DNA of 64,000 nt from a bacterium (GTDB lineage: Bacteria > UBA8248): contig OZ244906.1 of assembly GCA_965221655.1 (NCBI GenBank), positions 173,339 through 237,338 of the forward strand, read 5' to 3'. The position numbers were made by a program, and so were the translations under genes. Under the pieces are notes generated by a model. The model searched no databases and was not told the origin of the DNA. It worked only from the letters and a program-made list of their open reading frames with translations. Below are positions 26,185 to 48,115 of this stretch, piece after piece (within the stretch, counting starts at the first letter, position 1; every line of letters begins with the position of its first letter).

Positions 26185-26505
26185 GGTGCTGCGTGCGTTG
26201 GACATCAGGCTGTGTTTCGCGGAGCGGAGACTGCGCAGAGAGGAGCCGGGCGCGCGGGGCAGAGTATGCTGCGTGCGTCGGACGTCAGCCCGTGTTTTGT
26301 GAGGCGAAGGCCGCGCGGGGAGCAATCGACCGCGCGGGGCGGAGCATACTTCGTGCGCCAGGCGGCGGATCGTGTTTTGTGAGGCGAAGGCCAAGCGGGG
26401 AGTGGCGCTTTGCGGGGAGGAGCCGGGCGCGGGCCCGAACCATGCTTCGCACGTGCCGGAGCAGGGGACGTTCGGCGGAGCGGGACAGCGAGGGGAGGAG
26501 GCGAG
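26185..26505. repeat. Degenerate ~83-bp tandem repeat, 3-4 copies, in a divergent intergenic region
   Basis: The units share blocks such as (c)atgcttcgtgcg...ggacgtc...CGTGTTTTGTGAGGCGAAGGCC...gcggggag... About 75% identity between copies, with a 22-nt identical core in copies 2 and 3. Confidence 0.5.
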
Positions 26506-31542: not shown

Positions 31543-32220
31543 ATGCCCCTGATAGAGATGCAAGAAGTCAGCAAGCACTACGCCGGGGGCGACGCTCCCG
31601 TGCGGGCGCTTGTGGACGTGCGCTTTCGCGCCGGGCAGGGGGAGTTTATCACGGTCTCGGGGCCGAGCGGCTCGGGCAAGAGTACGTTCCTGCATCTGCT
31701 GGGGGCGGTGGACGTCCCTTCAAGCGGGCAGGTGTTCTTCGACGGACGCGACATCTCGCGCCTGAGCGATGAGGCGCTCAGCCGCATTCGGCTCGAGGAG
31801 ATGGGCTTCGTCTACCAGTTTTTTCACCTCATGCCCACGATGACCGCGCACGAGAACGTGGCCCTGCCGCTCATCCTGCAGGGCAGGCGGCGCGCAGAAG
31901 CTGCGCGGACCGCCGAGGAAGCCCTGTCTCGCGTGGGGCTCGGGGACCGTATGCGGCACTACCCCTCCCAGCTCTCGGGCGGGGAGATGCAAAGGGTGGC
32001 CGTCGCGCGCGCCGTTGTCCACGGCCCCCGCCTCGTGCTGGCGGATGAGCCGACGGGCAACCTGGATTCGGAAAACTCCCACCGGGTGATGGACCTCGTC
32101 TCGCAGTTGCACGAAGAGGACGGCTTCACCATCGTCATGGCGACCCACGACAAGATGCCCCTGCGCTACGCCACCCGGCGCCTCGAGGTCGTCGACGGAC
32201 GCTTGCGGGAGGAGGCGTGA
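31543..32220 (+). CDS. ABC transporter ATP-binding protein (LolD/MacB-type)
   Basis: MPLIEMQEVSKHYAGGDAPVRALVDV..., GPSGSGKST Walker A, LSGGEMQRVAVARA signature and LVLADEPTGNLD Walker B. Confidence 0.85.
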   Translation: MPLIEMQEVSKHYAGGDAPVRALVDVRFRAGQGEFITVSGPSGSGKSTFLHLLGAVDVPSSGQVFFDGRDISRLSDEALSRIRLEEMGFVYQFFHLMPTMTAHENVALPLILQGRRRAEAARTAEEALSRVGLGDRMRHYPSQLSGGEMQRVAVARAVVHGPRLVLADEPTGNLDSENSHRVMDLVSQLHEEDGFTIVMATHDKMPLRYATRRLEVVDGRLREEA

Positions 32221-34811
32221 GCGCCCTCGTTTCGCTCCTGCGCCTTTTGGCCTGGCGGAGACTCAGGCAAGAGCCCTTCCGGCTGCTCCTCACGCTGGTG
32301 GGCGTGGGGCTGGGCGTCGCCGTTTTCATCGCCATCAAGCTGGCGAACACGGCCTCGGTGCAGGCGTTTCAGAACAGCCTGGAGGTCATCTCGGGCAAGA
32401 CGCAACTGGAAGTCTCGGGCGGCGACCCGGGCGTGGCCGAAGACCTGATTCTCACGCTCGCGGCCATGCCGGAGGTGAAGCGCGCCTCTCCGGTCATCCG
32501 CGGCCACGTGTGGGTGCGCAAGGCGGGCGTTTCGGACGCGCGGTGGCGCCGCGGGGCTTCCTCTGAGGGGCGCTCCGCCCTCGTGCTCGGACTCGACCTG
32601 TTGGGGGATTCGGATTTTCGCACCTATTCGTTCGAGCGCGACTACGTGCGCGACGAGGTGCTTGAGCGCATCGCCGACCCGGAGGGCGTTTTTCTCACGC
32701 GGACGATGGCGCGCGCGATGGGCGTGAAGGCGGGCGATTTCGTCGAAATCGAAGCCGGGCGCAGAATGCGCTTTCGCGTGCGCGGCGTTATGAAGCCCGA
32801 AGGGGTGGCGAAGTCGATGGACGGCCGCCTCCTCATGATGGACGTGGCCGTCGCACAAGAAGCCCTGGATCGCCTGGGCAAACTCGACCGCATCGACCTG
32901 ATTCTCAAAAACGCGGGCGAAGTGGAGGCGGCGCGCGAGAAGATTCGCGCCGTGTTGCCGCCCGGCGTGGTGGTGTCGCGGCCCGAGAGGCGCGGGCGCG
33001 ACGTGGAGAAGATGCTGGCGTCGTTTCAGCTCAACCTCACGGTGCTGAGCGTCATCGCGCTGCTGGCGGGCTGTTTTCTCATCTACAACACCATGTCGGC
33101 CTCGGTACTCAGGCGCAGGGGGGAGATAGCCACCCTGCGCGGGCTGGGGGTGACGGCCAGAGGCGTCGCGCTCCTCTACGGGGCGGAGGCGCTCTGCATC
33201 GGGCTTGCGGGTGCGTGCCTGGGCCTTGCGGCGGGGGCGTTCATGGCCCGGGGCGCGCTTTCGGTCGTCTCGCAGACGATCAGCAACCTCTTCGCGTTTC
33301 TGGAGGTGGGCCGCGTCGCCCCCACGGGCGTCGACCTTCTGGAGGGGCTCGGCGTGGGGGTGGGCGTCGCGTTCGTATCGGGCGTTTTTCCCGCGGTGGT
33401 CGCCGCGCGCCAAAGCCCGCGCCGGGGTCTGGCCGAGCGGGGCGGCAAGGTGCAGGTGCGCCCGCGCACCGTGGCGCTCCTGCTCGGCGGCGCACTCCTC
33501 GCGGGCGCCGTCGCCTGGTGGCTGGGAGGGCAGGCGCTCGCCCGCGGCACGCCGGCGCCCGGCTATCTCGCGGCGGGTGCGGTGATTACCGCCACCGCCC
33601 TGGCGAGCCTCCCGCTCCTCTTATCGGGTTCGTTTGCGCTGCGCGAGGCGCGGGGTCTTTCGGTAAACGGCAGGCTCGCCGCCCACGGCCTGGGCAGACA
33701 CCCGCAGAGAAACGCCGTTACCCTCGCCTCGCTGGCCATCGCCGTTTCCATGCTGGTGAGCCTTTTGCTGATGATAGAGAGCTTCCGCTCGACGGTGGAA
33801 GTCTGGACGCACCAGACGCTGCGGGCGGATTTTTACGCCGCACCCGCTTCGGGCTTTATCAAGGGTGCGCGCACGAGCGTTTCCGAAAACTTGCTGCGCT
33901 CCGTGCGGAGCGTGCCGGGCGTCGCGGCGGTAGATGGCTTTCGCGCGATGCGCCTGCCCTGGCGCGGGGAGCGCATCTCGCTTGCGGGGGGTGATTTTCG
34001 CATCGTGGCCGAGCGGGGCAGGTTGTTGTTCCTGGAAGGCGACGCACGCGCGATTCTCACGCGGGCGCGGACGCGCGGAGAGGCGGTGATAACCGAGACC
34101 TTCGCCAACGCCCACGGAATCAGGCGCGGTGACGTGCTCACGCTTCCCGCACCCGCGGGCGAGGTGCGCGTGCGCGTGGCGGGCGTCTATTACGACTACA
34201 CCACTGACGGCGGCTACGTGGTGGTGGATCGCGCGTTTCTCAAAAAGCACTGGGGCGACGCCCGCCTGAATTCGCTCGCCGTGTACATCGAGGAGGGTGC
34301 GCGGCCCCAGGCGGTGCGCGCCGGGCTCGAGAGCGTTCTCGACCCCGCCGTGGCCATCGTCTCGAACGCGCGCCTCAAGCGGCGCGTGCTGCGCATTTTC
34401 GATCAGACGTTCGCCATCACCTATGCGCTCGAGTTCATCGCCGTTTTGGTGGCCCTGCTCGGCGTCGCCACCGGGCTGGGTTCGAACGTGGTGGAGCGCG
34501 CGCACGAAATCGGCGCGCTGCGCGCGATGGGCGCGACGCGCGCGCGGGTGGGGGCCATCGTCATGGGCGAGGCGGCCATGCTGGGTGCGCTCTCGGTGTT
34601 GCTCGGCCTTGCGGCGGGGGTGTGCCTCGCCTCCATCCTGATCTTCGTCGTCAACAAGCTGAGCTTCGGGTGGACGATTCAGTACGTCTTCCCCTGGCGC
34701 GAGGTGGGGGCCTATCTGCTGCTCGTGGTGTTCGCGGCGCTGGCTGCGGGCTGGCTGCCCGCCCGGGCGGCGGCGCGCGTCTCCATCGGGGAGGCTGTGG
34801 GACGGGAATGA
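32217..34811 (+). CDS. ABC transporter permease with duplicated FtsX domains (MacB-like, two 4-TM modules)
   Basis: 864 aa. Two hydrophobic FtsX-like blocks separated by large extracytoplasmic domains. GTG start overlaps the ATPase stop (GTGA). Confidence 0.85.
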   Translation: MSALVSLLRLLAWRRLRQEPFRLLLTLVGVGLGVAVFIAIKLANTASVQAFQNSLEVISGKTQLEVSGGDPGVAEDLILTLAAMPEVKRASPVIRGHVWVRKAGVSDARWRRGASSEGRSALVLGLDLLGDSDFRTYSFERDYVRDEVLERIADPEGVFLTRTMARAMGVKAGDFVEIEAGRRMRFRVRGVMKPEGVAKSMDGRLLMMDVAVAQEALDRLGKLDRIDLILKNAGEVEAAREKIRAVLPPGVVVSRPERRGRDVEKMLASFQLNLTVLSVIALLAGCFLIYNTMSASVLRRRGEIATLRGLGVTARGVALLYGAEALCIGLAGACLGLAAGAFMARGALSVVSQTISNLFAFLEVGRVAPTGVDLLEGLGVGVGVAFVSGVFPAVVAARQSPRRGLAERGGKVQVRPRTVALLLGGALLAGAVAWWLGGQALARGTPAPGYLAAGAVITATALASLPLLLSGSFALREARGLSVNGRLAAHGLGRHPQRNAVTLASLAIAVSMLVSLLLMIESFRSTVEVWTHQTLRADFYAAPASGFIKGARTSVSENLLRSVRSVPGVAAVDGFRAMRLPWRGERISLAGGDFRIVAERGRLLFLEGDARAILTRARTRGEAVITETFANAHGIRRGDVLTLPAPAGEVRVRVAGVYYDYTTDGGYVVVDRAFLKKHWGDARLNSLAVYIEEGARPQAVRAGLESVLDPAVAIVSNARLKRRVLRIFDQTFAITYALEFIAVLVALLGVATGLGSNVVERAHEIGALRAMGATRARVGAIVMGEAAMLGALSVLLGLAAGVCLASILIFVVNKLSFGWTIQYVFPWREVGAYLLLVVFAALAAGWLPARAAARVSIGEAVGRE

Positions 34812-36841: not shown

Positions 36842-36860
36842 CGCGTACATGGGAGGAAGA

Positions 36861-38441
36861 ATGGTGAAGGATATATCCCCGGTTGAACTCAAGAGCCTGA
36901 TGGAAAGCGGCGGCGCGTACGCGGTGCTCGACGTGCGCGACCCGATGGAATTTCACGAAAAACAAATATTCATGACGACGAACGCCCCGCGCTCCGCACT
37001 GGAGTTTCTCGCCCCCCGCCTCGTGCCCGTACGCGCGACGCGCGTGGTGGTGGTGGACGAGGGCGGCCCCCGCGCCGGGCGCGCGGCGGCCCTGCTCGCA
37101 GAGAGCGGCTACGCGGACGTCTCGGTGCTCACAGGCGGCCTGCGCGCCTGGGAGGAGGCGGGCTTCGCGACGGTATCGGGCACCAACGTGCCGAGCAAGG
37201 ACTTCGGCGAGCGGGTGCACGTGGAAAACGCCGTGCCCGAGATTACGGCGGAAGACCTCTTCGCACTCATCGAGGCCGACCCGCCGCCGCGCATATTCGA
37301 CACGCGCACCGAGGTGGAGTTCGAGCGCTTCTGCGTCCCCACCGGGCGCAACCTGCCCGGCGGGGAGCTGATTCTCCACGCCTGGGATTTGGCCCAGGAC
37401 ACCGAGACGCCTCTCATCATCAACTGCGCGGGCCGCACCCGCAGCATCATCGGCACGCAGGCGCTCCACCGTCTGGGCGTCACCCAGGCGCGCGCTCTCA
37501 AAAACGGCGGCATGGGCATCATGCTGGCCGGGCTGCCGCTGGCAGAAGGCGTGGCGAGCGAGATTCCCGCACCCTCCGCGCAAAGCCGCGCCCACGGGGA
37601 GACGCTCGGCGCACAAATTGCGGAGGAGGAGGGAATTCCCTTCGTCTCGCCCGAAGAGCTGCGCGCACTCATCGACGGGGCGGAGAACGAGACCCTCTAT
37701 CTGCTCGACGTGCGCCTGGCGCCCGAATTCTCAGGCGGCCATCTGCCGGGGGCGATCTCCATCCCCGGCGGGCAGGCCGCCCAGCGCACGGATGAGGTAA
37801 TCGCCGTGCGCGCGGGACGGGTGGTGACCTATTGCGACCAGAACGCGCGCGGGATTATGGCGGCCTACTGGCTGCGGCAGATGGGGCTCGACGTAAGCGT
37901 CCTGCGCGGGGGGCTCGCCGCGTGGACGCAAGCCGGCGGCGCACTGGAGAAATCCGACGCCGCCGCCTCGGGCGAAAGCCCCGCCCAGGCCGCGGGCGTC
38001 CTGGGACTGGAAGAAGCCATGCGCGCGGCGCGCGCGTATACGGCACAAGAAACGGCGGAGTGCGGAGTCGTGCTCGACGTGGATACGAGCGCCTCCTACG
38101 AGGGCGGCCACCTGCCGGGCTCAAGCTGGGTGTCGAGGGGGCTCATAGAAGAAGAAGCGCCCGCACAAGCGGGCGACGCACCCCTGGTCTGCGTCTGCGA
38201 GGATGGGCGCAAGTCCGCCCTGAGCGCGCACGCACTCGCGCGGCTGGGCCACGACGCGGGCTACCTCGCGGGCGGCAAGGCGGCCTGGCGGGCGGCGGGC
38301 CGCACACTGCAAACCGGGCGCGCAGGGCTGGGCGACAAACCGAAGGACGTGCAGCTCAAGCCCTACGACATCGGGCGCGGCGCCATGGAGGCCTACCTCA
38401 CCTGGGAGGAGAACCTGGGCCACAAGTACGAGCGCAAGTAG
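36861..38441 (+). CDS. Multi-domain rhodanese (sulfurtransferase) protein, about four tandem rhodanese domains
   Basis: Repeated ...YxxGHIPGA... and CxxGxR active-site loops (NCAGRTRS, YCDQNARG, VCEDGRKS). Confidence 0.85.
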   Translation: MVKDISPVELKSLMESGGAYAVLDVRDPMEFHEKQIFMTTNAPRSALEFLAPRLVPVRATRVVVVDEGGPRAGRAAALLAESGYADVSVLTGGLRAWEEAGFATVSGTNVPSKDFGERVHVENAVPEITAEDLFALIEADPPPRIFDTRTEVEFERFCVPTGRNLPGGELILHAWDLAQDTETPLIINCAGRTRSIIGTQALHRLGVTQARALKNGGMGIMLAGLPLAEGVASEIPAPSAQSRAHGETLGAQIAEEEGIPFVSPEELRALIDGAENETLYLLDVRLAPEFSGGHLPGAISIPGGQAAQRTDEVIAVRAGRVVTYCDQNARGIMAAYWLRQMGLDVSVLRGGLAAWTQAGGALEKSDAAASGESPAQAAGVLGLEEAMRAARAYTAQETAECGVVLDVDTSASYEGGHLPGSSWVSRGLIEEEAPAQAGDAPLVCVCEDGRKSALSAHALARLGHDAGYLAGGKAAWRAAGRTLQTGRAGLGDKPKDVQLKPYDIGRGAMEAYLTWEENLGHKYERK

Positions 38442-38447
38442 GGCGCT

Positions 38448-38804
38448 CTACGCGGAGGGTGTGTCCGCTTTTGCCGCTCCTTGTGCGCGGGATTCCGCGT
38501 TGTACGCGCGCACCTGTCTGGGAATGGTGAATAAATCCACGAATCGCCACATGGTGTAGGGCAAAAAGGCGATGAAGATGATTGCTTTCGTCTGCACGCC
38601 CATGTCGGGCAGGGATATCGAGGTGAGAAAGCCGACAAAAAACGCGGCGGAATAAAGCAGGGCTGAGCGCGGTTTTTCCAGATAGAAGTGGTGTGCCCCC
38701 AGCCAGTCCAAGGCGAGCCACAGCACATAAGCCAAGGCGATCGATTTTTCGCGCGGGCCGGAGCCGCCTCTGCTGGAGACGTGGGGCTTGCCTGCGTTCA
38801 TCAT
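38448..38804 (-). CDS. TM2-domain membrane protein (paralogue 4, shorter and diverged)
   Basis: ...WLALDWLGAHHFYLEKPRSALLY... TM2 signature (G-x-H-x-FYLG) and shared C-terminal motif WRFVDLFTIPRQVRAYN. Confidence 0.7.
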   Translation of the reverse strand: MMNAGKPHVSSRGGSGPREKSIALAYVLWLALDWLGAHHFYLEKPRSALLYSAAFFVGFLTSISLPDMGVQTKAIIFIAFLPYTMWRFVDLFTIPRQVRAYNAESRAQGAAKADTPSA

Positions 38805-39277
38805 CGCCCGTGGGTGCGGGGGGCGTCCGGAAAGCGGCCGGAGAGCCCCTCGGGCGCGGGGTCGGGCGTCGTTCCGGACGCCGGCAGGGAGGCGATGATC
38901 TCCATCTCCAGGTTTTCGTTATAGGCGCGCACCTGCCGGGGGATGGTGAACAGGTCCACGAACCACCACGCGCTGAAGGCGAGCAGGCCGAGCAAACCGA
39001 TGGCGATGGGGACGAGCGCCGCCTGGGAAGAGGTTTCCGCCAACGCACCGCCCGCCGCGATGAATACGACCGCAACGAAAGACTCGATGACGTAGAGAAT
39101 GCCTTTGCGCTTCTTGCCTAAATAAAATTTATGAGAACCGAACCCGCTCAGGAAAAACCACAAGGCGTAGGTGGTGAGCGTGGATTTTCTGCGCCGCCTG
39201 AGTTCGCTCTCCACCGCGCGGAGTTCGTGCGGACTGAGCCTGCTCTTCATGGCGGGGAGTGTGGTTGCCGGCTGCAT
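38801..39277 (-). CDS. TM2-domain membrane protein (paralogue 3)
   Basis: YALWFFLSGFGSHKFYLGKKRKGILY... and WWFVDLFTIPRQVRAYNENLE. Confidence 0.75.
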   Translation of the reverse strand: MQPATTLPAMKSRLSPHELRAVESELRRRRKSTLTTYALWFFLSGFGSHKFYLGKKRKGILYVIESFVAVVFIAAGGALAETSSQAALVPIAIGLLGLLAFSAWWFVDLFTIPRQVRAYNENLEMEIIASLPASGTTPDPAPEGLSGRFPDAPRTHGR

Positions 39278-39321
39278 TTTTTGTTTCTCCTCTCAGAAGC
39301 GGGTCTGCCTGTTTTCGCTCA

Positions 39322-39798
39322 TCATCGCCCGTGGGTGCGGGGGGCGTCCGGAAAACGGCCGGAGAGCCCCTCGGGCGGGGAGTCGGGCGTCGTTCCGGAC
39401 GCCGGCAGGGAGGCGACGATCTCCATCTCCAGGTTTTCGTTGTAGGCGCGCACCTGCCGGGGGATGGTGAACAGGTCCACGAACCACCACGCGCCGAAGG
39501 CGAGCAGGCCCAGCAAACCGATGGCGATGGGGACGAGCGCCGCCTGGGGAGAGGTTTCCGCCAACGCACCGCCCGCCGCGATGAATACGACCGCAACGAA
39601 AGACTCGATGACGTAGAGGATGCCTTTGCGCTTCTTGCCTAAATAAAATTTATGAGAACCAAACCCGCCCAGGAAAAACCACAAGGCGTAGGTGGTGAGC
39701 GTGGATTTTCTGCGCCGCTTGAATTCGCTCTCCACCGCGCGGAGTTCTTGCGGACTGAGGCTGCTCTTTATGGCGGGGAGTGTGGTTGCCGGCTGCAT
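39322..39798 (-). CDS. TM2-domain membrane protein (paralogue 2, about 93% identical to paralogue 3)
   Basis: Near-identical protein encoded by a near-identical ~525-bp DNA unit. Confidence 0.75.
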   Translation of the reverse strand: MQPATTLPAIKSSLSPQELRAVESEFKRRRKSTLTTYALWFFLGGFGSHKFYLGKKRKGILYVIESFVAVVFIAAGGALAETSPQAALVPIAIGLLGLLAFGAWWFVDLFTIPRQVRAYNENLEMEIVASLPASGTTPDSPPEGLSGRFPDAPRTHGR

Positions 39799-39851
39799 TT
39801 TTTGTTTCTCCTCTCAGAAGCGGGGCAGGCGGGTCTGCCTGTTTTCGCTCA

Positions 39852-40346
39852 TCATCGCCCGTGGGTGCGGGGGCCGTCCGGAAAGCGGCCCGAGAGCCTC
39901 TCGGGCGGGGAGTCGGGCGTCGTTCCAGGCGTCGGCAGGGAGGCGATGATCTCCATCTCCAGTCTTTCGTTATAGGCGTTCACCTGCCGGGGGATGGTGA
40001 ACAGATCCACCAGCCACCATATCCCGTAGGCGAGCAGGCCGAGCAAACCGACGGCGGTGGGTGCGACCGCCGCATTGGGAGAGGTTTCCGCCGCCGCGAC
40101 GCCCGCAAAGATGAAGACGACCGCAACGAAGGGCCCGATGACGTAGAGGATGCCTATGCCCGGCTTGCCCAAATAGAATTTATGAATCCCGAACCCGCTC
40201 AGGAAAAACCACAGGCCGTAGGTGAGCAGCGTGGACTTTCTGCGCCGCACGAGTTCGCTCTCCAGTACGAGGAGTTCGTGCGCACTCAGCCTGCTCTTCA
40301 TGGCGGGGAGTGGGGTTGTCGGTCGCATGTTCGTTTTTCCTCTCAA
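39852..40346 (-). CDS. TM2-domain membrane protein (paralogue 1, more diverged)
   Basis: YGLWFFLSGFGIHKFYLGKPGIGILY... and WWLVDLFTIPRQVNAYNERLE. Confidence 0.7.
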   Translation of the reverse strand: MRGKTNMRPTTPLPAMKSRLSAHELLVLESELVRRRKSTLLTYGLWFFLSGFGIHKFYLGKPGIGILYVIGPFVAVVFIFAGVAAAETSPNAAVAPTAVGLLGLLAYGIWWLVDLFTIPRQVNAYNERLEMEIIASLPTPGTTPDSPPERLSGRFPDGPRTHGR

Positions 40347-40362
40347 AAGCGGGTTTGCGTGG

Positions 40363-41028
40363 TCATTCCCATTTTCTGCGCATCATCCGGACGAGTTCGG
40401 TTCCCGATTCACCCGCATCGAACCTGCGGGTGAACTCCTCTTCTACTTCCATCACGATGCGGGTGCGCTCGCGCACGGCCTCGGCGTGGTCGAGCGGCAC
40501 CACGGCCACGCCGTCCGCGTCGGCAACGACAATGTCTCCCGCCGCGACTTGTACGCCGCAGCATATGACGGGCGCGTCGCGCTCGACCAGCACCAGCCGC
40601 CGCGAGTAGGGCAGGGGCCGCACGCCGCAGGACCATACGGGCAGGCCGAGTGCGCGGATTTCGAGCACGTCGCGCGCCCTGGCGTCCGTCACCACGCCCG
40701 CGGCTCCGCGCCTGTGGATGACGCGCGCCCCGTTCGCCCCCAAAACGGCCATGTCGCTCCCGCCGGTGGCGATCACCACGAACCTGCCCGGCGGCGTCTG
40801 CTCGTGAGCGCCGTAGAGGCTCACGCGCTCGGGCGGCATCTCCCCCGCGTCGTCCACGGGTGCGAAGCGCATGGTGGCGGCGGGGGCGGCCACCCGCGTC
40901 TGCGTGAAGGGCGTGAGGGGGGCGACGTCGCGCATCACCAGGTCCAGCCCCAGGTAAATCGAGGCGTCCGCGATGGCGGTGGTCGGTGCGCGCGAGAAGA
41001 ATTCCAGGGCGTCGTGCATGGCGTTCAC
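40363..41028 (-). CDS. RraA-family protein (RNase E inhibitor / 4-hydroxy-4-methyl-2-oxoglutarate aldolase-like)
   Basis: ...GRFVVIATGGSDMAVLGANGARVIHRRGAAGVVTDARARD... is the RraA/MenG-like fold signature. The start overlaps the cyclase stop. Confidence 0.8.
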   Translation of the reverse strand: MNAMHDALEFFSRAPTTAIADASIYLGLDLVMRDVAPLTPFTQTRVAAPAATMRFAPVDDAGEMPPERVSLYGAHEQTPPGRFVVIATGGSDMAVLGANGARVIHRRGAAGVVTDARARDVLEIRALGLPVWSCGVRPLPYSRRLVLVERDAPVICCGVQVAAGDIVVADADGVAVVPLDHAEAVRERTRIVMEVEEEFTRRFDAGESGTELVRMMRRKWE

Positions 41029-47453: not shown

Positions 47454-47593
47454 CTTGGCTGTCTCCTTTCGGGCTGCGTCAATCGCTGTTCCGGTGGTTT
47501 ATAGCACATCCCCCCGCCTCGTGCGCGTGCAGCAGCAGGGGGCAGAGATGCCGCCGCAAAACCCCTCTGGCCTCACGGGGAGGAGCCGCCCGA

Positions 47594-47875
47594 AGATTTT
47601 ATGGCTCGAAGATTTTATGGCTTGAAGGCTTTATGGCTTATGGGGAAGACTGCATGGGGAAGACTCTGTAGGGAGGCGCGCCGCACGGCCCACTCCTGCC
47701 GGGCATTCGCGCTGGCGGTCTCCACGGGTGCGCGGTCGATGCGTCGGGCGTATCTGCCGAATTCCTCGAATCGAAACGGGAGGGCGCACGGGTTTTCCCG
47801 CATGAAATGCAAAAAATGCCATAAACCCGGGAAAACCCGGTAAAACCCGGGAAAACTCGCAAAAACACGGGAACG
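47594..47875. repeat. Intergenic short tandem repeats (TTTTATGGCT x3, GGGGAAGACT x2, AAAACCCGG x3) with a flanking inverted repeat
   Basis: The first tract reads agATTTTATGGCTcgaagATTTTATGGCTtgaaggCTTTATGGCTtatGGGGAAGACTgcatGGGGAAGACTctg. The second reads CGGGTTTTCCCG ... ataAACCCGGgAAAACCCGGtAAAACCCGGgaaaac. Confidence 0.6.
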
Positions 47876-48115
47876 AAAAAAGGCGGTTCGATTGAAATTT
47901 TTAATGAATGGCGGCGTTTCATGCGGGAGGTGTGGCGGGCCGGGAGCGGGGTTCGACGCATTCTGCGAGAAAAGACTCGATTTTCCCCACGCGGGATGCT
48001 AGGTTATGAAGGAGCAGAGATGAAAGGGAGAGGACTCTGCCGTGGGTGCGCCCGGCGGGCATTTCGAGCCGGGTGCAGGTGCGCAAAGCCAAGAACCGAT
48101 GGGAGATGGAGAGTC

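What the first reader, a model, noticed from the sequence alone, without database searches (positions are those of the whole stretch)
38448..40380. Four TM2-domain genes in tandem, three on near-identical ~525-bp direct repeats
Bacterial TM2-domain proteins (G-x-H-x-FYLG signature between two helices) are functionally uncharacterised. Here four paralogues sit head-to-tail at the end of a minus-strand cyclase-RraA operon. Copies 2 and 3 are about 97% identical at the nucleotide level over whole 525-bp units that include the ribosome-binding site. Copy 1 is about 85% identical and copy 4 is shorter and diverged. This looks like an ongoing tandem amplification by unequal crossing-over. The proteins differ mainly in the N-terminal cytoplasmic segment and the extracytoplasmic loop, suggesting diversification rather than pure dosage. 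Assemblers often collapse or mis-count such repeats, so the copy number itself needs confirmation.
Basis: seen in the sequence. Interest (0 to 1): 0.6.

Follow-up and report, generated by a model that had tools for sequence, protein, structure and literature searches.

The report
Recent tandem expansion of TM2 genes
An uncultured bacterium carries three recently duplicated copies plus one old, degenerate copy of a small membrane-protein gene of unknown function where its relatives have one, which is a real but fairly ordinary case of young gene duplication.

Summary
Four intact minus-strand TM2-domain (PF05154) genes lie head-to-tail at 38448-40328. Repeat units are 530 and 521 bp. Units 2 and 3 are 96.9% identical, and unit 1 is 84-85% identical to them. 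A second assembly of the same strain has an identical array.

Five syntenic relatives carry a single long-type TM2 gene at this spot, and none of 219 other loci has more than two. c1-c3 form one clade (93% bootstrap), so the triplication is recent and lineage-specific.

The paralogues evolve at dN/dS 0.72-0.83, against 0.23-0.27 for single-copy orthologues. Their differences avoid family-conserved columns, so the copies are still functional with relaxed or diversifying peripheries.

c4 is different: old, shortened, missing 25 of 47 consensus residues, and almost an orphan. Its origin is unresolved.

The link to the cyclase-RraA operon is not conserved, because relatives have other genes in between. 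The differences between copies are not concentrated in the N-terminus and loop.

Function remains unknown. There were no hits in defence or NCBIfam libraries, no solved structure, no conserved neighbourhood and no functional literature on bacterial members. Multi-module TM2 proteins elsewhere hint that TM2 modules work as oligomers.

Verdict: a new member of a known kind, of low to moderate interest.

The parts
39852..40328 (-). c1, long-type TM2-domain gene (158 aa). It is the copy closest to the single-copy orthologues.
   Evidence: ORF. Pfam TM2 at 44.3 bits. The ATG start agrees with the gene call in L001. It is 53-57% identical to the L002-L004 orthologues.
39322..39798 (-). c2, long-type TM2-domain gene (158 aa).
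   Evidence: It is 93% identical in protein to c3.
38801..39277 (-). c3, long-type TM2-domain gene (158 aa).
38448..38804 (-). c4, short and highly diverged TM2-domain gene (118 aa). Its ATG overlaps the c3 stop codon (ATGA) and it has no Shine-Dalgarno sequence of its own.
   Evidence: Pfam TM2 at 42.9 bits. It keeps only 22 of 47 family-consensus residues. P0015 is its only close relative. The overlap is visible in the sequence.
39322..39851 (-). Repeat unit 2 (530 bp): a spacer containing a Shine-Dalgarno sequence, followed by c2.
38801..39321 (-). Repeat unit 3 (521 bp): a spacer containing a Shine-Dalgarno sequence, followed by c3. It is 96.9% identical to unit 2.
39852..40362 (-). Repeat unit 1 (511 bp, from the RraA stop codon to the c1 stop codon). 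It is 84-85% identical to units 2 and 3.
39799..39851 (-). c1-c2 spacer (53 nt). It holds a vestigial ATGATGA, a 9-nt insertion that creates a small hairpin (39823-39840), and the Shine-Dalgarno sequence GAGAGGAG at 39808-39815.
   Evidence: Sequence, alignment, hairpin found by the terminator scan.
39278..39321 (-). c2-c3 spacer (44 nt), with the Shine-Dalgarno sequence GAGAGGAG at 39287-39294. It aligns 28/32 with the region upstream of c1.
40329..40362 (-). RraA-c1 spacer (34 nt), with the Shine-Dalgarno sequence GAGAGGA at 40338-40344. This is the left boundary of the duplicated unit (CACGCAAACCCGC).
40363..41028 (-). Upstream neighbour (context only): RraA-like/aldolase family gene.
   Evidence: Pfam RraA-like at 97.8 bits. 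All NCBIfam matches are below their cutoffs.
36849..38441 (+). Convergent downstream neighbour (context only): a four-domain rhodanese gene whose stop codon lies 6 nt from the c4 stop codon. Its adjacency to the TM2 gene is conserved in relatives.

Best explanation
An ancestral single long-type TM2 gene sat next to the convergent rhodanese gene. In this lineage it was duplicated in tandem twice, together with its ribosome-binding site.

The first event (c1 versus the c2/c3 ancestor, dS about 0.2) must have joined non-homologous ends. The unit boundary lies at CACGCAAACCCGC upstream of c1 and just past the stop codon, at the ATGATGA start of c4. This suggests a microhomology-mediated join, but that is not proven. 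The second event (c2 versus c3, dS about 0.04) is most simply unequal homologous recombination between the first two copies.

All three copies remain intact. They encode small inner-membrane proteins of 158 aa with an N-terminal amphipathic helix, three hydrophobic helices carrying the conserved H-K-F-Y-L-G and W-x-V-D-L-F-T-I-P-R-Q motifs, a C-terminal helix and a disordered proline-rich tail. Purifying selection still protects the family-conserved core. The rest evolves about three times faster than in single-copy orthologues. This is the pattern expected for young duplicates kept for dosage, or in the early stage of divergence.

c4 is a separate and much older diverged paralogue, or a gene acquired from elsewhere. 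It was already downstream and is translationally coupled to c3.

Shown: anatomy, copy number, monophyly, single copy in relatives, and the rates. Inferred: the recombination mechanisms, expression, membrane topology, and any role of the proteins. My best guess for that role is oligomeric membrane assemblies built from TM2 modules.
For: - Anatomy and identities.
- Same array in a second assembly, with no differences inside it.
- Five syntenic relatives (L002, L003, L004, L083, L084; flanking proteins 75-85% identical) have one long-type TM2 gene next to the rhodanese gene.
- Of 219 other loci, only about five have a pair and none has three or four.
- Tree: c1+c2+c3 at 93% bootstrap, c2+c3 at 100%.
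- dS is 0.04 (c2-c3) and 0.18-0.22 (c1-c2/3), against 1.0-1.6 to the orthologues.
- omega is 0.72-0.83 in paralogues against 0.23-0.27 in orthologues. The excess over 0.25 gives p = 3e-6, 1.5e-6 and 0.03.
- Differences are depleted at 47 family-conserved columns (p = 0.012 and 0.0005), and c1-c3 keep 39-43 of 47 consensus residues.
- Each copy has its own GAGAGGA(G) Shine-Dalgarno sequence 8-10 nt before the ATG.
- The spacer aligns 28/32 with the region upstream of c1.
- The AlphaFold model has pLDDT 82, with helices at 16-29, 33-46, 56-80 and 84-129.
- c4: dS is saturated, 22 of 47 consensus residues are kept, and P0015 is the only close relative in two searches.
- Fused 2-4-module TM2 proteins exist, and the three metazoan TM2D genes 'function together' (PMC8714088). 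Both fit oligomeric use of TM2 modules.
Against: - omega of 0.72-0.83 is not distinguishable from 1 (p = 0.17-0.38). An open frame after 73 random substitutions is expected 13% of the time. One or two copies could therefore be drifting towards loss.
- Gene conversion could make old duplicates look young. The 3' 150 nt are more similar between c1 and c2 than the rest (p = 0.006), although a longest-identical-run test is not significant (p = 0.55).
- The homology between the spacer and the c4 5' end is too short to be significant beyond ATGATGA (shuffle p = 0.34), so the microhomology model is only suggestive.
- All single-copy syntenic relatives belong to one sister clade, so a single loss in that clade is formally possible.
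- There is no expression data, no read-level data, and only one strain.
- Nothing here tests the protein's function.
Confidence: 0.62

Rival explanations
1. Adaptive diversification. The copies are kept because they differ: they are subunits of a hetero-oligomeric TM2 membrane assembly, or variants with different partners or topology, rather than extra dosage.
For: - omega is raised about threefold over the orthologues while the core stays conserved.
- In c2/c3 the loop after the H-K-F-Y-L-G motif became GKKRKG (+4), against GKPGIG in c1 and GRIATG-type loops in all relatives. That is 5 nucleotide changes in 9, and it removes the K+R bias across the membrane (+3 in c1; 0 and +1 in c2 and c3).
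- 55 of the top 150 c4 hits have at least two TM2 modules in one chain, and 24 have exactly four.
- The metazoan TM2D1-3 genes act together.
Against: - No test here separates positive selection from relaxation.
- c2 and c3 differ at only 11 residues.
- The four-module proteins are metazoan, with two-helix modules.
- Pairs are rare and larger arrays absent among 219 bacterial, metagenomic and viral loci. A multi-gene requirement is therefore not general for the family.
Confidence: 0.2
2. An old paralogue array homogenised by gene conversion (concerted evolution), with the extra copies lost in the sister clade. On this view the low divergence dates the last conversion event and not the duplication.
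For: - The 3' 150 nt of c1 and c2 are significantly more alike than the 5' part (13/150 against 60/327 differences, p = 0.006).
- c4 shares QVRAYN and its GTGCGCGC codons with c2/c3 but not with c1 or the orthologues.
- All syntenic single-copy loci form one clade (95% bootstrap).
Against: - More distant family members are also single-copy wherever enough flank is available.
- No significant identical tract was found (p = 0.55).
- The spacers carry the same junction in both repeats, as expected for serial duplication of one unit.
Confidence: 0.1
3. Assembly artefact: a single gene, or two strain haplotypes, wrongly laid out in tandem.
For: The source is an assembly of an uncultured organism, with no reads available here. 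The two assemblies are of essentially the same strain (99.98% identical) and may share raw data.
Against: - The copies differ by 3% and 15%, so they are distinguishable rather than collapsible.
- Each unit is complete, in frame, and has its own Shine-Dalgarno sequence and a clean junction.
- Two contigs of different length (69 kb and 2.93 Mb), which differ elsewhere by indels, agree base for base across the array.
- A 2-kb array is easily spanned by long reads. The use of long reads is my inference from the megabase-scale contig and is not shown.
Confidence: 0.03
4. Decaying duplicates: only one copy is functional and the others, c4 especially, are on the way to becoming pseudogenes.
For: - omega is not different from 1.
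- c4 has lost the invariant G of FYLG (now E) and 25 of 47 consensus residues. It lacks the N-terminal helix and has lower GC3 (0.73, against 0.85-0.89 in flanking genes).
Against: - All frames are open.
- Conserved columns are protected in c1-c3.
- c4 keeps all 12 residues that are invariant across the 18-sequence alignment.
- A second contig encodes a version of c4 that is 98-99% identical (P0015).
Confidence: 0.05

Closest known systems
Bacterial single-module TM2-domain proteins (Pfam PF05154), long-type subfamily of about 145-155 aa. Examples are P0038, P0005 'TM2 domain-containing protein [Nitrospinae bacterium]' and P0176 '[Nitrospiraceae bacterium]'.
   Same: The same domain and the same full-length architecture. 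This comprises an N-terminal L-x-x-L-K-x-x-L-x-x-x-E-L helix ending in RRRKS, the GxHKFYLG motif, the WW-x-VDLFTIPRQ motif and a C-terminal NE-x-LE-x-EII helix. c1 is 50-57% identical to these proteins.
   Different: Every relative examined has one copy, and here there are three plus c4. c1-c3 have a lineage-specific longer proline-rich tail, and c2/c3 have a unique KKRK loop.
Metazoan TM2D1/TM2D2/TM2D3 (biscotti, amaretto, almondex).
   Same: The TM2 domain, with a [D/H]-[R/K]-F motif between the hydrophobic helices. There are several paralogues per genome that, according to PMC8714088, function together.
   Different: The metazoan proteins have a signal peptide, a divergent extracellular N-terminal domain and two helices. 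Their genes are dispersed and their role lies in Notch/gamma-secretase signalling. The proteins here have no signal peptide, a basic N-terminal helix, and an extra hydrophobic hairpin inserted within the second helix of the domain.
Multi-module TM2 proteins: four modules in Mactra antiquata KAL4233538.1 and six matched stretches in Lingula anatina XP_013400308.1 (the sequence looks like two concatenated three-module copies), and two to three modules in the metagenomic proteins P0033, P0041, P0043 and P0051.
   Same: Several complete TM2 modules, including the DLF-x-x-P-x-x-V-x-x-x-N end motif, lie side by side as a result of tandem duplication.
   Different: Those modules are fused into one polypeptide, whereas here they are separate genes, each with its own ribosome-binding site or translational coupling. 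The metazoan modules have two helices.
Bacterial tandem gene duplication and amplification by unequal recombination (general, established knowledge).
   Same: Head-to-tail direct repeats of a whole gene with its ribosome-binding site, the same junction in successive units, and a single copy in relatives.
   Different: Classical amplifications are near-identical and unstable. These copies have already diverged by 3% and 15% and are fixed in both assemblies, so this is a retained paralogue family rather than a transient amplification.

Membership tests
Pfam TM2 domain (PF05154) | The sequence matches the family HMM above the curated gathering score (27.9 bits). | tested here: met
   c1 scores 44.3 bits, c2 51.5, c3 47.0 and c4 42.9.
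Pfam TM2 domain (PF05154) | Two hydrophobic helices joined by a short loop that carries the conserved [D/H]-[R/K]-F(-Y) motif. | tested here: met
   c1-c3 have H-K-F-Y-L-G and c4 has H-H-F-Y-L-E, which departs from the motif at the basic residue and at the G. The helices at 33-46 and 56-80 are modelled at pLDDT around 90. The Pfam match covers only profile positions 2-36/40 in c1-c3, because a hairpin of about 30 aa is inserted before the W-x-x-D-L-F end of the domain.
Metazoan TM2D1-3 family | An N-terminal signal sequence and an extracellular domain before the TM2 domain. One-to-one orthology to TM2D1, TM2D2 or TM2D3. | tested here: not met
   The N-terminus is a 32-residue basic amphipathic segment (7-8 K/R, ending RRRKS) and not a signal peptide. 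All the closest relatives are bacterial. The features of the family are taken from PMC8714088.
Recent tandem gene duplication (paralogue array) | Same-strand, head-to-tail repeats, each containing a complete gene and its translation signals. | tested here: met
   Units of 530 and 521 bp, each with a GAGAGGAG Shine-Dalgarno sequence and an intact 158-codon ORF.
Recent tandem gene duplication (paralogue array) | The copies are each other's closest relatives, and orthologous loci in related genomes hold a single copy. | tested here: met
   The c1-c3 clade has 93% bootstrap support. There is one copy in L002, L003, L004, L083 and L084.
Recent tandem gene duplication (paralogue array) | Copy-number variation between strains or within the population, which is what 'ongoing' amplification would mean. 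| not testable with these tools
   Only one strain is available, in two assemblies with identical arrays. No reads are available. The 7.6-kb contig encoding P0015 could not be retrieved.
Known anti-phage defence systems (PADLOC) | A match to a defence-system protein model. | tested here: not met
   No hits at E <= 0.1 for c1, c2, c4, RraA or the cyclase.
Phage-encoded TM2 proteins (PHROGs) | A match to a phage protein family, together with a phage genomic context. | tested here: inconclusive
   There are matches to phrog_8793, phrog_10680 and phrog_10292 (E 1e-9 to 3e-14), all annotated 'unknown function'. The locus has no phage genes within 10 kb. Viral-contig matches cover only the core of about 35 residues.

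The most novel reading that the evidence does not exclude
The four adjacent genes encode the subunits of one hetero-oligomeric TM2 membrane assembly. This would be the gene-by-gene bacterial counterpart of the single-chain four-module TM2 proteins of molluscs and brachiopods, and of the three metazoan TM2D proteins that act together. On this reading the KKRK loop gained by c2/c3, which cancels the positive-inside charge bias seen in c1 and in all orthologues, changes orientation or partner choice within that assembly. The array would then capture the birth of a heteromer from a homomer.
Probability: 0.1. Interest if true: 0.55.

Novelty: new member of a known kind. Interest (0 to 1): 0.27.

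Why it matters
The TM2 domain is ancient. It is shared by bacteria, phages and animals, where TM2D3 variants are linked to Alzheimer's disease and Notch signalling, and it has no known molecular function and no solved structure. This locus does not answer that question.

It does offer a clean, datable example of a TM2 gene going from one copy to three, with a conserved core and freely changing peripheries. Together with the fused multi-module proteins, it also adds comparative support for the idea that TM2 modules work as multimers.

Its practical value is limited. The organism is uncultured, only one strain is known, and tandem duplication of small membrane-protein genes is common.

Tried and rejected
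- Tandem Repeats Finder reported nothing because its period limit is 500.
- PADLOC and NCBIfam gave no hits for the TM2 proteins. PHROGs gave only 'unknown function' families.
- Rfam (gathering threshold) and tRNA scans of the whole window found nothing.
- The promoter and terminator scan was at background level. It found no terminator between RraA and c1 or after c4.
- Literature: 'TM2 domain' mostly means 'second transmembrane helix', as in the Cap1 preprint. I found no functional study of a bacterial PF05154 protein.
- The contig carrying P0015, the only close c4 relative, is not on record.
- The junction homology between the spacers and the c4 5' end is not significant beyond ATGATGA (p = 0.34). 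I therefore keep the microhomology model as a suggestion only.
- A gene-conversion test on the longest identical run was not significant (p = 0.55).
- A neighbourhood analysis of 59 long-type loci found no family-wide conserved neighbour.
- I considered an envelope-stress link, because four relatives have a secreted protein directly upstream. Its LTXXQ/Metal_resist match is below threshold (18.8 against 24.3 bits) and the gene is absent from this window, so I rejected it as evidence.
- I considered horizontal acquisition of the array. GC3 of c1-c3 (0.80-0.81) is only slightly below the flanking genes (0.85-0.89), and the orthologues sit at the same site, so c1-c3 are native. The question stays open for c4, which has GC3 0.73.
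Full report
OBSERVATION. Four ORFs lie head-to-tail on the minus strand: c1 39852-40328, c2 39322-39798, c3 38801-39277 (158 aa each) and c4 38448-38804 (118 aa). All four match Pfam TM2 (PF05154) at 42.9-51.5 bits, against a gathering score of 27.9. The repeat finder gives start-to-start spacings of 530 and 521 bp. In a gapped alignment of whole units, from the previous stop codon to the unit's own stop, units 2 and 3 are 96.9% identical (16 mismatches and one 9-nt indel). Unit 1 is 84.3% and 85.3% identical to them. Each long copy has its own Shine-Dalgarno sequence, GAGAGGA(G), 8-10 nt before an ATG. c4 has none, and its ATG overlaps the c3 stop codon as ATGATGA. GC3 in the called frame is 0.80-0.81 for c1-c3 and 0.73 for c4, against 0.85-0.89 in flanking genes. 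This supports the minus-strand frames over the long plus-strand ORFs, which are typical of GC-rich DNA.

IS THE COPY NUMBER REAL? The exact c2 protein is encoded on two contigs, one of 2.93 Mb and an ENA contig of 69 kb. The 69-kb contig matches the window at 99.98% over 20.5 kb. The differences are one substitution and two indels at window positions 33214, 34766 and 31336, all outside the array. Two separately built contigs of the same strain therefore agree base for base over the array. The copies differ by 3-15%, so collapse or artificial expansion is unlikely. Read-level confirmation was not possible.

COMPARISON WITH RELATIVES. The source species is not among the 185,579 species representatives, where the best hit is 58% identical. 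It is an uncultured bacterium. The closest genomes are MAGs labelled only 'bacterium', and more distant family members are labelled Nitrospinae, Nitrospiraceae or Binatia. Five loci (L002, L003, L004, L083, L084) are syntenic. They carry molybdopterin oxidoreductase, cyclase and RraA-like genes upstream, and convergent rhodanese and 3-hydroxyisobutyrate-dehydrogenase-like genes downstream, with proteins 75-85% identical to those of the window. Each has one TM2 gene, of the long type (148-153 aa), lying next to the convergent rhodanese gene. Across the other 219 loci fetched from genomes, metagenomes and viral contigs, five loci representing about three distinct cases (L051, L096/L097, L139/L152) have two TM2 ORFs in tandem. 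None has three or four. In a neighbour-joining tree c1+c2+c3 form a clade (93% of 500 bootstraps) and c2+c3 group at 100%. Synonymous divergence is 0.04 for c2-c3, 0.18-0.22 for c1-c2/3 and 1.0-1.6 between c1 and the orthologues. The simplest history is two successive tandem duplications in this lineage, both well after it split from the L002-L004 clade.

THE OPERON CLAIM. In the window c1 starts 34 nt after the RraA-like stop codon, and no terminator-like site lies between them. In L002, L003, L083 and L084, however, RraA and the TM2 gene are separated by a conserved 94-99-aa ORF and a secreted protein of about 200 aa, whose stop codon sits directly before the TM2 start. In L004 the second of these is replaced by a DUF429 gene. 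None of these genes is in the window. The conserved neighbour is therefore the rhodanese gene and not cyclase-RraA, and the interval between RraA and rhodanese is a variable spot. The 200-aa protein gives only a sub-threshold LTXXQ/Metal_resist match (18.8 bits against 24.3). I do not treat it as evidence for an envelope-stress role.

HOW THE UNIT WAS MADE. The c2-c3 spacer aligns 28/32 with the 34 nt upstream of c1, from CACGCAAACCCGC onwards. That fixes the left end of the duplicated unit. At the right end, both spacers begin with ATGATGAGCG(AAAA)CAGGCA, which resembles the c4 start ATGATGAACGCAGGCA. This would mean the unit extended a few bases into c4 and that the first join used a short CA(G/C)GCA(A/G)(A/G)CCC microhomology. 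Beyond the ATGATGA, which belongs to the end of the long gene itself, the similarity is too short to be significant (shuffle p = 0.34), so this step is suggestive only. The second duplication needs nothing more than unequal homologous exchange between two 0.5-kb repeats, which is established general knowledge. The c1-c2 spacer has a 9-nt insertion that creates a small GGCAG/CTGCC hairpin. Both spacers contain a 10- or 13-codon mini-ORF that starts at the vestigial ATGATGA and stops inside the next Shine-Dalgarno sequence. It is probably a relic.

SELECTION. Single-copy orthologues (L002-L004) give dN/dS of 0.23-0.27. The three paralogue pairs give 0.72, 0.83 and 0.74. These values exceed 0.25 (binomial p = 3e-6, 1.5e-6, 0.03) but are not distinguishable from 1 (p = 0.17-0.38). 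The changes are not random with respect to the family. At 47 columns conserved in at least 9 of 11 outgroup sequences, c1 differs from c2 at 6 and from c3 at 3. At 83 variable columns the figures are 28 and 27 (Fisher p = 0.012 and 0.0005). c1-c3 retain 39-43 of the 47 consensus residues. The core is therefore still under purifying selection and the rest is relaxed or diversifying. This is not the picture of pseudogenes, and it does not prove adaptive diversification either. The differences are spread over all regions: for c1-c2, N-terminus 12/32, helices 3/15, 5/22 and 6/22, loops 4/11 and 2/8, C-terminal part 7/48. The 3' 150 nt are more similar between c1 and c2 than the rest (p = 0.006), which leaves room for some gene conversion. 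A longest-run test is not significant (p = 0.55). One local oddity stands out. The loop after HKFYLG is GKKRKG in c2/c3, against GKPGIG in c1 and GRIATG-like in all relatives. That is five nucleotide changes in nine, and it removes the K+R bias between the two membrane faces (+3 in c1; 0 and +1 in c2 and c3).

c4. c4 is 37-40% identical to c1-c3. It lacks most of the N-terminal helix, seven residues of the middle helix and the tail. It has E in place of the invariant G of FYLG and R in place of the second W of the WW-x-VDLF motif, and it keeps only 22 of 47 consensus residues. Synonymous sites against c1/c2 are saturated (dS 1.7-2.9). Its placement in the tree is unresolved (31% with c1-c3). 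Two searches, one word-indexed over 5.8 billion proteins and one exhaustive over 1.84 billion representatives, find a single close relative. This is P0015, 98-99% identical and on a 7.6-kb contig. Its N-terminus, MNTDKPREKS, lacks ten codons present in c4. That contig could not be retrieved. The next best single-module hits are long-type proteins of 145-155 aa at 44-46% identity. c4 therefore derives from the long type, is much older than the c1-c3 expansion, and is either a fast-evolving local duplicate lost in the sister clade or an acquired gene. The syntenic relatives lack it.

THE PROTEIN. An AlphaFold2 model of c2, built on a 15-sequence alignment, has mean pLDDT 82. It shows helices at 7-12, 16-29, 33-46, 48-52, 56-80 and 84-129, with a disordered tail from 136. 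Hydropathy gives three hydrophobic segments (33-47, 59-80, 89-110), a basic N-terminus and an acidic eight-residue loop between the second and third segments. Shorter TM2 proteins align to positions 31-65 and 95-133 of the family profile. The long type therefore carries a hairpin of about 30 residues inserted into the second helix of the classical domain. No solved structure resembles it by sequence or by fold. The viral structure hits are unannotated phage TM2 proteins. No defence-system or NCBIfam model matches. No gene neighbour is conserved across 59 long-type loci. I found no functional study of a bacterial member.

A COMPARATIVE HINT. Among the 150 best hits to c4, 55 have two or more TM2 modules in one chain and 24 have exactly four. 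The four-module examples I checked are metazoan (Mactra antiquata, Lingula anatina). Two- and three-module proteins occur on metagenome contigs, and Pfam confirms 2-4 TM2 domains in those tested. [quoted passage not shown] Tandem multiplication of TM2 modules is thus a recurrent theme, and it fits modules acting as oligomers. That is the mechanism I consider most likely for these proteins, but it is inference and was not tested here.

VERDICT. This is a young, lineage-specific paralogue array of a known but uncharacterised domain family, sitting next to an older degenerate paralogue. It is a tidy example and not a surprising one: a new member of a known kind, interest about 0.27.

Noticed in passing
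L002 5047-6013; L003 5066-6013; L004 4554-5964 (also L083, L084): In syntenic relatives the interval between RraA and the TM2 gene holds a conserved 94-99-aa ORF with no Pfam match. After it comes either a secreted protein of about 200 aa (sub-threshold LTXXQ/Metal_resist match, stop codon directly before the TM2 start) or, in L004, a DUF429 gene. None of these has a match in the window, so this interval is a variable spot in the lineage.
   Followed up: partly
window 39619-39633 (c2) and 39098-39112 (c3), codons 56-60: The loop after the HKFYLG motif is GKKRKG in c2 and c3, against GKPGIG in c1 and GRIATG-like in every relative. Five nucleotide changes in nine add three positive charges and cancel the K+R bias across the membrane. 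The cause is unexplained.
   Followed up: partly
window 39821-39851 and 39291-39321 (minus strand): Each spacer carries a mini-ORF (MMSENRQTRLPRF* and MMSENRQTRF*). It starts at the ATGATGA that overlaps the preceding stop codon, at the position c4 uses after c3, and it ends at a TGA inside the next Shine-Dalgarno sequence. It is probably a relic of the duplication junction. A role in translational coupling was not tested.
   Followed up: no
P0027-P0059 (hits); P0031 = Mactra antiquata KAL4233538.1, P0028 = Lingula anatina XP_013400308.1: Many proteins carry several complete TM2 modules in one chain. Four is the commonest number (24 of the 150 best hits), and one protein of 3655 aa has 40 matched stretches. 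The four-module ones I checked are lophotrochozoan, with Q- and P-rich tails. They appear to be distinct from the TM2D1-3 family described in the literature.
   Followed up: partly
window 32217-34811 (+): This is an 864-aa MacB/FtsX-type ABC permease ORF (Pfam FtsX and MacB_PCD). No gene is called across it in the second assembly (L001 15380-17581). That assembly differs here by a substitution at 33214 and a 2-nt indel at 34766, so one of the two assemblies may carry a frameshift error.
   Followed up: partly
window 26187-26402: An 80-nt tandem repeat of 2.7 copies with 77% matches, in a region covered by overlapping long ORFs on both strands. I did not examine it.
   Followed up: no
window 47591-47638 and 47823-47873: Two short tandem repeats: a 16-nt unit in 3 copies (CGAAGATTTTATGGCT) and a 10/20-nt unit in 5 copies (AAACCCGGGA). 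They lie in a lower-GC stretch (0.57) between ORFs that end at 47504 and start at 47921. This may be a regulatory intergenic region.
   Followed up: no
window 1-64000: The whole 64-kb window has no tRNA gene and no Rfam family at gathering threshold.
   Followed up: yes
L097 5965-7209 (also L096): A bioreactor-metagenome contig has two long-type TM2 genes in tandem that are only 46% identical (61/132). This is an independent and much older duplication in the same subfamily.
   Followed up: partly
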